Assembly: GCF_044704955.1 (NCBI RefSeq)
Contig: NC_091991.1
Location: 181,288,001-181,352,000, forward strand
DNA from: Pristiophorus japonicus
Taxonomy: Eukaryota
Reading direction: 5' to 3'
Length of the DNA stretch: 64,000 bases
Shown in pieces: positions 20,855 to 63,143 of the stretch; position 1 is the first letter of the stretch; the number at the start of each line of letters is the position of its first letter. The notes under the pieces were generated by a model, which saw only the letters and a list, made by a program, of their open reading frames with translations, had not been told where the DNA came from and made no database searches. Made by a program: the position numbers and the translations under genes.

Positions 20855-36628
<15,774 letters not shown>

Positions 36629-50870: not shown

Positions 50871-51357
50871 GTGGGTTTAGGATCTAGTTTCCACCGGGCA
50901 GAATGTGGGAGGCCAGCCAGGAGTGCGTTGGAATAGTCAAGTCTGGAGGTAACAAAGGCATGGACGAGGGCTTCAGCAGCGGAAGAGCTGAGGCGCGGGG
51001 CGGAGACGGGCGATGTGACGGAGGTGGTAATAGGCGGTTTTAGTTACGCCGTGGATATGTGGCCGGAAACTCATTTCAGGGTCAAATATAACACCAGCCT
51101 CAGGCAGGAGTTGGGGAGAGGGATGGAGTTTGTGGCGGGAACCGAAAACCATGGGCACGGGAATAATTGGTGAAAGGCGCTATATAAATGCAAGTTCTTC
51201 CTTTTTATGCAAACCCCTCAGTTTTCTTGTCCTCCGTTGCCCGGGAAATGCCAGGCAGAGGTTGGGTAGCGCTCTGATTTGTCGGCTGAGCTGTCAATCA
51301 CACGCCGTCGCTACGTAGCCGCCCGGGAGCATTTAAACCGCTCGCTCCGCCAGTCGG

Positions 51358-51760
51358 CCAATGGGAGGCGGCGGCCGGGAATGTATTTAAATGAGCTCAG
51401 CCAATGGGAGGCGGTGGCTGGGCTGTATTTAAATGAGCTCAGCCAATGGGAGGCGGCGGCCGGGAATGTATTTAAATGAGCTCAGCCAATGGGAGGCGGC
51501 GGCCAGGAATGTATTTAAATGAGCTCAGCCAATGGGAGGCGGTGGCTGGGCTGTATTTAAATGAGCTCAGCCAATGGGAGGCGGCGGCCGGGAATGTATT
51601 TAAATGAGCTCAGCCAATGGGAGGCGGCGGCCGGGAATGTATTTAAATGAGCTCAGCCAATGGGAGGCGGCGGCCAGGAATGTATTTAAATGAGCTCAGC
51701 CAATGGGAGGCGGCGGCCGGGAATGTATTTAAATGAGCTCAGCCAATGGGAGGCGGCGCC
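51358..51760 (+). repeat. 42-43-bp minisatellite in PLK1 promoter, unit CCAATGGGAGGCGGCGGCCGGGAATGTATTTAAATGAGCTCAG, 9 full units plus a partial (10 CCAAT boxes)
   Basis: CCAAT at 51358, 51401, 51443, 51486, 51529, 51571, 51614, 51657, 51700, 51743. Confidence 0.95.
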
Positions 51761-51776
51761 GGGCTGGCTAACGGCC

Positions 51777-51792
51777 GGCGCTGGGATTTGAA
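51777..51792 (+). promoter_or_regulatory. CDE/CHR cell-cycle element of PLK1 promoter (GGCGCTGGGATTTGAA)
   Basis: Canonical CHR TTTGAA at 51787-51792 preceded by GC-rich CDE-like GGCGC, ~210 bp upstream of the ATG; CDE/CHR is established for mammalian PLK1. Confidence 0.75.
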
Positions 51793-52004
51793 TCAGAGCC
51801 CGCGAGTCGGTGCAAGGGACGGACGCGCCGCTCACTTTGCCTCCGGGTCCTGCCGCTGTGCCGAGCCGCCCCCGCTCCCAAACTCTCAGCCTCCCGGCCC
51901 GAGCACCACCCGAGCCCGAGGCTGCAGCCGCCCGGGAATTACAGGCCCGCCAACCCCGCGCTTGTTTCACCCCGCCCCCCGCCTCCCCTCTCAGCGACCG
52001 GGCA

Positions 52005-63143
<11,139 letters not shown>

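What the first reader, a model, noticed from the sequence alone, without database searches (positions are those of the whole stretch)
51330..51795. PLK1 promoter is a tandemly amplified cell-cycle cis-module: 10 phased CCAAT boxes, nine paired with a CHR-like TTTAAA
Seen: a 42-43-bp unit repeated 9+ times ending ~250 bp before the ATG. Each unit has an NF-Y-type GCCAATGGG, a GC-rich GGCGG, TTTAAA inside palindromic ATTTAAAT, and palindromic TGAGCTCA; a canonical GGCGC-N-TTTGAA CDE/CHR follows. Unit variants run A-B-A-C-B-A-A-C-A, implying multi-unit duplications. Established: G2/M gene promoters including PLK1 use a few CCAAT boxes (NF-Y) plus CHR elements bound by MuvB (DREAM/MMB-FOXM1), and TTTAAA is a known CHR variant. 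Inference: the unit is not obviously TE-derived and looks like the native promoter module itself multiplied. The period is about four helical turns, so sites would sit near one DNA face. It could be a copy-number-variable dial for a mitotic master kinase.
Basis: partly seen in the sequence, partly recalled or inferred. Interest (0 to 1): 0.8.

Follow-up and report, generated by a model that had tools for sequence, protein, structure and literature searches.

The report
Amplified CCAAT repeat in PLK1 promoter
In this cartilaginous fish, a short piece of the switch region in front of the cell-division gene PLK1 has been copied in tandem, giving ten activator-type boxes where a related species has room for three; this looks like a recent repeat expansion that is tolerated, and whether it changes gene output is untested.

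Summary
The array is real: nine 42/43-bp units (A-B-A-C-B-A-A-C-A) and a tenth CCAAT lie 242 bp before the ATG of an intact, single-copy PLK1. The unit occurs nowhere else in the 5.9-Gb assembly. A contig from a related species spans the locus with two diverged units, 300 bp shorter. So this is a young expansion of a native promoter segment, from three CCAAT positions to ten.

Corrections: the canonical TTTGAA CHR and a MYB-like site were not amplified. The GC element does not fit CDE spacing. The TGAGCTCA palindrome is not conserved. Phasing holds only between neighbours. Human PLK1 has one CCAAT box.

CCAAT-bearing minisatellites are common in this genome. A second CCAAT/CHR-like array differs by one unit between two copies in the assembly.

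Best reading: a tolerated promoter minisatellite seeded by repeated NF-Y sites, with timing still set by the single proximal CHR. Length variation at PLK1, factor binding and any effect on expression are untested. A new member of a known kind; moderate interest.

The parts
51357..51741 (+). Nine tandem 42/43-bp units (A-B-A-C-B-A-A-C-A), each with one CCAAT box, a G-rich stretch and TTTAAA inside ATTTAAAT
   Evidence: locus-unique in the assembly; 2 units in the related species
51742..51763 (+). Partial tenth unit with the proximal CCAAT (51743-51747)
   Evidence: CCAAT has no listed difference in the related species
51769..51774 (+).
   Evidence: fits [CT]AAC[GT]G of PMC4176359; the relative's one change here (51773 G>T) keeps the consensus
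51787..51792 (+). Canonical CHR TTTGAA, single copy; the GC element before it is 5 nt away and fails the CDE model
   Evidence: no listed difference in the relative, while a base is inserted just upstream
51322..51337 (+). Upstream TTTAAA (51332-51337) with a loose CDE-model match 4 nt before it; outside the repeat
   Evidence: no listed difference in the relative
51277..51300 (-). TALE DECA-type decamer (51291-51300) beside a reverse CCAAT that is broken here (position 51280) and intact in the relative
   Evidence: 51280 T>G in run X7; no listed difference 51288-51312; decamer as given in PMC6023610
52005..52361 (+). PLK1 first coding exon (119 aa); the gene continues to about 63140
   Evidence: a contig of run X5 stops matching exactly at the donor site 52361
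50900..51206 (.). High-copy interspersed repeat that bounds the unique promoter on its 5' side
   Evidence: summed contig depth about 1e5 to 4e6 in three DNA-type runs; masked by matches to other loci

Best explanation
A recent, lineage-specific minisatellite expansion inside an ordinary NF-Y + CHR mitotic promoter. SHOWN: the array, its uniqueness, and a relative with two diverged units (three CCAAT positions 42 and 43 bp apart) before the same MYB-like site and CHR. INFERRED: the ancestral boxes shared a G-rich direct repeat of about 17 bp at 42-43-bp spacing. This let slippage or unequal exchange copy the interval between boxes, including one 3-unit block. NF-Y can probably bind several boxes and keep the region open. 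Cell-cycle timing is probably still set by MuvB (DREAM in G0/G1, MMB-FOXM1 in G2/M) at the single proximal TTTGAA. The seven extra units are mostly redundant, with at most a modest, saturating effect on output. The expansion persists because it keeps spacing and leaves the core intact, not because a high copy number was selected.
For: Same-type units are identical, while the relative's proximal unit differs from the array unit at 8 of 26 listed positions, so the expansion is young and the pattern old. The relative's contig (979 nt, depth 19.1) runs from upstream flank to exon 1 and is net 300 bp (7 units) shorter. None of 13 listed differences in 51716-51794 hits TTTAAA, CCAAT or TTTGAA (17 of 79 positions; P about 0.03). 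The genome makes such arrays readily: 8 minisatellites in 94 kb around PLK1 and three within 2.7 kb of the ATG. The triple-CCAAT pattern has 3,446 overlapping matches, and 9 of 9 inspected loci are tandem arrays. The locus is 5.8 Mb from the end of a 187-Mb contig. In human reporters, p53-dependent PLK1 repression needs the CHR and not the CCAAT box (PMC4747163). Functional CHRs sit on or very near the TSS (PMC4176359).
Against: Only one relative was seen, as one assembled contig. Two of its three CCAAT positions and one TTTAAA fall near piece ends where differences are not listed (at most 4 unlisted in that piece). Amplified motif arrays are not the rule at promoter-like sites: 1 of 25 motif-selected loci had an array over the motif. 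TTTAAA is an optimal LIN54 site with little flank dependence and is conserved in the relative's proximal unit, so extra copies may well be bound. Deleting the three CCAAT boxes of CDC25C lowers activity, and one study finds the PLK1 CCAAT box needed for p53/p21 repression, so box number can matter.
Confidence: 0.6

Rival explanations
1. Functional dial: each unit adds an NF-Y site and a MuvB site, so copy number raises G2/M output and deepens G0/G1 repression. The array is a length-variable expression modifier of PLK1.
For: TTTAAA binds DREAM about as well as TTTGAA and is the CCNB1 CHR. ATTTAAAT is spared in the relative's proximal unit (8 changes in 26 nt, none inside; P 0.028). The 4-turn spacing is kept in both species. 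An upstream reverse CCAAT is broken here but intact in the relative, as in site turnover (direction not polarised). A similar array elsewhere has 10 versus 11 units in two copies. Over 100 of 4,849 human promoter repeats associate with expression or methylation (PMC4857002 abstract).
Against: No allele, binding or expression data for this array. The TTTAAA copies lie 59-401 bp upstream of the canonical CHR and none has a CDE. The same human figure is only about 2% of promoter repeats. TTTAAA alone is not significantly conserved (P 0.33). Arrays are common background here.
Confidence: 0.28
2. The AT-rich element is a TATA-like box (TATTTAAA; likeness recalled, from no call), so each unit is a mini core promoter and the array gives several start sites 43 bp apart.
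For: Each unit has CCAAT and a GC-rich stretch followed by TATTTAAA.
Against: TATTTAAA is 26 or 69 bp from a CCAAT start, whereas PMC3730095 gives +50 for NF-Y-TATA pairs (its counting origin was not seen). CHR promoters are usually TATA-less. The relative's proximal unit has a C in place of the first T (51726 T>C).
Confidence: 0.05
3. Copy number is an assembly artefact or the unit is a dispersed satellite or transposon piece.
For: No read spanning the array was seen; the exact count of nine rests on the assembly.
Against: A 28-mer of the unit has 9 matches at up to 3 mismatches in 5.9 Gb, all here, and the upstream flank is single-copy. Units carry consistent variants A, B and C. A contig of own-species run X3 begins at 51729, exactly 30 bases before the first base unique to the last unit, as at a 31-mer graph branch. 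That points to a repeat in the raw data, though X3 may be the assembly's own sample.
Confidence: 0.04

Closest known systems
NF-Y + CHR (CDE/CHR) G2/M promoters, e.g. cyclin B2, CCNB1, CDC25C, human PLK1
   Same: CCAAT boxes at near-integral helical spacing upstream of a TTTGAA CHR. Cyclin B2 has three boxes about 33 bp apart (PMC3287175). CCNB1 uses TTTAAA without a CDE.
   Different: Spacing is 42-43 bp. There are ten boxes made by recent perfect duplication, with a TTTAAA between boxes. Human PLK1 has a single CCAAT box (PMC4040702).
Promoter minisatellites/VNTRs that carry factor sites (hTERT MNS16A with GATA sites; BORIS-MS2)
   Same: Locus-specific tandem units near a promoter; unit number could alter expression (MNS16A: search listing; BORIS-MS2: passages).
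   Different: Here the unit is the promoter's own conserved CCAAT interval, next to the core of a mitotic gene. Length polymorphism and effect are not shown.
ERV-9/LTR12 E3 repeats and the R66 tandem repeat (NF-Y-bound arrays)
   Same: Natural arrays of many CCAAT boxes; 14 CCAAT/GATA E3 repeats matter for beta-globin locus expression (as cited in PMC3730095).
   Different: Those derive from retroviral LTRs and are dispersed. This unit is unique in its genome and has an unamplified orthologue.

Membership tests
CHR-regulated G2/M promoter | CHR hexamer (TTYRAA), phylogenetically conserved | tested here: met
   TTTGAA at 51787 with no listed difference in one related species
CHR-regulated G2/M promoter | CHR on or very near the transcription start | tested here: inconclusive
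   Spliced contigs of run X5 cover at least from 51851, 59 nt after the CHR; contigs cannot show a start
CHR-regulated G2/M promoter | CDE 4 nt upstream of the CHR (optional; 23% of CHR promoters) | tested here: not met
   The model fails for TTTGAA and for all 9 in-unit TTTAAA; only the upstream TTTAAA at 51332 matches
CHR-regulated G2/M promoter | Upstream CCAAT boxes | tested here: met
   10 boxes; the proximal one is verified unchanged in the relative
CHR-regulated G2/M promoter | NF-Y and MuvB/DREAM binding; cell-cycle-dependent expression | not testable with these tools
   needs ChIP/EMSA and synchronised cells
Minisatellite (tandem repeat, unit over 7-10 bp) | Head-to-tail units of high identity, with variant units, at one locus | tested here: met
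Promoter VNTR / expression-modifying VNTR | Copy number varies among individuals of the species | tested here: inconclusive
   No second allele found in the assembly and no laid record spans the array; number differs between species (9 versus 2 units)
Promoter VNTR / expression-modifying VNTR | Copy number changes expression | not testable with these tools
   needs reporters or allele-specific expression
Dispersed satellite or transposon-derived repeat | Unit present at many loci | tested here: not met
   9 of 9 matches at this locus, up to 3 mismatches in 28

The most novel reading that the evidence does not exclude
The amplified unit is a working NF-Y + MuvB module. Its copy number segregates in the species and widens the dynamic range of PLK1 transcription (higher in G2/M, lower in G0/G1). 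The same in-place amplification of core promoter motifs recurs at other CpG-rich promoter-like sites in this repeat-rich genome (the 33/34-bp CCAAT/CHR-like array on C32, the 27-bp CCAAT array on C1), making minisatellite growth a general route for retuning promoters in this lineage.
Probability: 0.15. Interest if true: 0.7.

Novelty: new member of a known kind. Interest (0 to 1): 0.36.

Why it matters
It catches a conserved cell-cycle promoter in the act of expanding: a relative keeps three CCAAT positions, this species has ten, and the core CHR is untouched. The 2-unit and 9-unit forms are a natural pair for asking whether NF-Y and CHR site number sets output or saturates, and whether CHR-like sites away from the start site work. 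If copy number does tune PLK1, it would be a mutable dosage control on a central mitotic kinase. If not, it shows how much repeat growth such a promoter tolerates. Four paper searches listed no report of this repeat or of a tandemly amplified NF-Y/CHR module; only listings were seen, and the library lacks most subscription papers.

Tried and rejected
1. Run search: no RNA holder listed as such. Run X5 is taken as RNA only because its contig stops matching at the exon-1 donor. Its lack of cover over the array is not used as evidence on start sites.
2. Run X15 (organism C) gave no useful promoter piece. X3 had no laid piece inside 51242-51697 (72% of the run read; a hole proves nothing). So no record spans the array in the own species and no allele was genotyped.
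3. TGAGCTCA as a functional site: rejected, 3 of 8 bases differ in the relative's proximal unit. A strict CDE before TTTGAA: rejected.
4. 'All sites on one DNA face': true for neighbours only. End-to-end drift is 115, 240 or about 360 degrees at 10.6, 10.5 or 10.4 bp/turn.
5. Bidirectional promoter: of 130 ORFs scanned (of 280 listed; mainly those upstream within 18 kb), 1 hit Pfam, a DCTN5 exon at 35247-35384 on the same strand. No divergent gene was found; short exons would be missed.
6. The gene served by the C32 array was not identified: 1 of 40 ORFs hit Pfam, weakly and below cut-off.
7. The 3,446 versus 1,387 pattern-to-control count is dominated by a few long arrays and is not used as an enrichment test.
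8. The two CCAAT+CHR patterns did not match PLK1 itself and returned many copies of interspersed repeats, so they are a rough promoter sample only. The control motif was recalled as a ZNF143 site.
9. Earlier findings: two look-ups empty, one unrelated hit.
10. How the 11-bp DECA-CCAAT spacing is counted could not be seen (preprint figure and supplement not available), so the fit of the 9-nt gap here is open.

Full report
Verdict. The feature is real and native: a young tandem expansion of the CCAAT-to-CCAAT interval of the PLK1 promoter. A role as an expression dial is possible but has no direct support.

Observation. All 10 GCCAATGGG in the window lie between 51357 and 51750. They define nine 43/42-bp units in the order A-B-A-C-B-A-A-C-A and a partial tenth. 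All five A units are identical, as are both B and both C units. C differs from A by one base; B is one base shorter and differs in its middle. The order parses as A+[BAC]+[BAAC]+A, one 3-unit duplication plus one single-unit duplication, in line with TRF's 128-bp period at 97% (the parse is inference). The ATG is at 52005. Exon 1 is a kinase N-terminus matching PLK1, and the top 18 of 120 listed homologues are from cartilaginous fishes. It is the only match at E 1e-10 in the assembly, and ten exon-like hits run to about 63140. DCTN5 lies upstream on the same strand.

Not a dispersed repeat. A 22-mer of the unit junction has 9 exact matches in 5.92 Gb, and a 28-mer has 9 matches at up to 3 mismatches, all in this array. 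The flank 51215-51356 is single-copy. A high-copy interspersed repeat ends near 51206. In own-species run X3 a contig starts at 51729, 30 bases before the first base unique to the last unit. That is where a 31-mer graph branches, so the raw data likely hold the repeat. It does not give the copy number, and X3 may be the assembly's own sample.

The relative. One 979-nt contig of run X7 (organism B, depth 19.1) matches 51223-51373, then has 7 other letters, then matches 51681-51894 and 52004-52366. It is net 300 bp, seven units, shorter: two units of 42 and 43 bp and the final box, so three CCAAT positions. Its proximal unit differs from the array unit at 8 of 26 listed positions. Diverged units there and identical units here put the expansion in this lineage (inference). 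Of 33 differences in that piece 29 are listed; the rest lie near the piece ends, so two CCAAT positions and one TTTAAA are not verified base by base. This is one species and one contig.

What is conserved. None of the 13 listed substitutions in 51716-51794 falls in TTTAAA, CCAAT or TTTGAA (17 of 79 positions; P 0.03, and 0.04 among A/T positions only; TTTAAA alone P 0.33). The change at 51773 keeps a MYB-site match by the model in PMC4176359. TGAGCTCA is changed at 3 of 8 bases. The GGCGC before TTTGAA is 5 nt away here, has a base inserted after it in the relative, and fails the CDE model. Upstream, a DECA-type decamer (51291-51300; PMC6023610) and a TTTAAA at 51332 show no listed difference. 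A reverse CCAAT beside the decamer is intact in the relative and broken here (51280). The expansion pushed these upstream elements 300 bp further from the core. Contigs of run X5, taken as RNA because one stops matching exactly at the exon-1 donor (52361), cover the leader from at least 51851.

Background. The 94 kb around PLK1 hold 8 minisatellites (period 20 or more, 4 or more copies; 4.0% of bases), three of them within 2.7 kb around the ATG. The locus is 5.8 Mb from the end of a 187-Mb contig. A triple-CCAAT pattern has 3,446 overlapping matches. The 100 listed fall in about 10 loci in the first 65 Mb of C1, and 9 of 9 inspected are tandem arrays; one sits beside a CpG-rich stretch. A 33/34-bp array on C32 has TTTGAA 4 nt after a GC-rich element in each unit and CCAAT in about half. 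It shows 10 such units on C32 and 11 on contig C709, whose flanks are about 97.6% identical. Against treating this as routine: only 1 of 25 motif-selected loci had an array over the motif, and only 2 of 47 arrays in 174 kb carry both motifs, both chosen for that reason.

How it most likely works. Established: CCAAT boxes bound by NF-Y give activity, and CHRs bound by LIN54/MuvB give timing. TTTAAA is a functional CHR and fits TTYRAA, and functional CHRs lie on or very near the start site (PMC4176359, PMC3287175, PMC4974476). For human PLK1, one study finds p53-dependent repression needs the CHR and not the CCAAT box, and another finds the single CCAAT box needed. Inferred: the G-rich direct repeats at the ancestral boxes seeded slippage or unequal exchange. 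Whole-unit gains keep the four-turn spacing between neighbours and leave the CHR, the MYB-like site and the leader intact, so they are tolerated. The extra TTTAAA copies lie 59-401 bp upstream of the canonical CHR and could bind MuvB, but they are outside the usual position. I put 0.6 on tolerated expansion with little effect, 0.28 on a real copy-number effect, 0.05 on multiple TATA-like starts and 0.04 on artefact.

Comparison and novelty. It works like an NF-Y + CHR G2/M promoter and is structurally a promoter minisatellite. Membership of 'expression-modifying VNTR' is open, since polymorphism and effect are untested. Promoter repeats that carry factor sites and natural CCAAT arrays are known. 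What differs here is that the unit is the promoter's own conserved interval and the unamplified form survives in a relative. Searches listed no description of it.

Papers seen. Passages only: PMC4176359, PMC3287175, PMC4747163, PMC4040702, PMC4974476, PMC3730095, PMC6023610, PMC4973313 and bioRxiv 10.64898/2026.02.16.706105 (its figures and supplement, which bear on DECA-CCAAT spacing, were not seen). Abstract and outline: PMC4857002. Search listing only: PMC5438627. Recalled and from no call: the TATA and YY1 likenesses, the ZNF143 label and the ephrin-A label.

Noticed in passing
L104:136-475 (G000:C32, about 13,878,140-13,878,480) and L111 (G000:C709): A 33/34-bp array in CpG-rich DNA. Each unit has TTTGAA 4 nt after a GC-rich element (CDE/CHR geometry; also YY1-like, recalled) and about half have CCAAT. 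There are 10 such units on C32 and 11 on C709, whose flanks are about 97.6% identical. An ephrin-A-like exon (recognised by eye) lies about 6 kb away; the gene served is not identified.
   Followed up: partly
L024:1017-1724 (G000:C1, about 14.16 Mb): A 27-bp CCAAT-bearing array (21 copies in its best TRF row; 28 boxes in the locus) beside a CpG-rich promoter-like stretch that holds a second, 34-bp array.
   Followed up: partly
L026, L031, L036 (G000:C1, 29.5, 32.1 and 47.3 Mb): A dispersed 40-bp minisatellite family whose unit has a DECA-like decamer 9 nt before CCAAT, the same gap as in the relative's PLK1 upstream element; 4 to 23 copies per locus.
   Followed up: no
window:51898-51980: The transcript-like contigs of run X5 (same organism label, another sample) differ in the 5' leader by 3 substitutions, an 8-nt insertion and an 11-nt deletion, with no difference in coding exon 1.
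   Followed up: no
window:50385-50871 and 52665-53067: Two more tandem arrays flank the PLK1 start: a 56-bp unit inside interspersed repeat and a 27-bp poly-C-rich unit in intron 1.
   Followed up: no
window:52526-52582: Intron 1 has a reverse CCAAT (52546) followed by two TTTAAA (52558, 52575) in GC-rich sequence.
   Followed up: no
window:13356-15152 (-): A 599-codon open frame with no Pfam hit, on the strand opposite DCTN5 and PLK1; possibly a large exon of a neighbouring gene.
   Followed up: no
L101-L108 (G000:C32:13,848,001-13,928,000): 34% of this 80-kb stretch is minisatellite (38 arrays), against 4% around PLK1.
   Followed up: no
L025 and L074: Two loci share a similar CCAAT-rich leader, which suggests an interspersed element carrying CCAAT and CHR-like motifs (seen by eye).
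   Followed up: no
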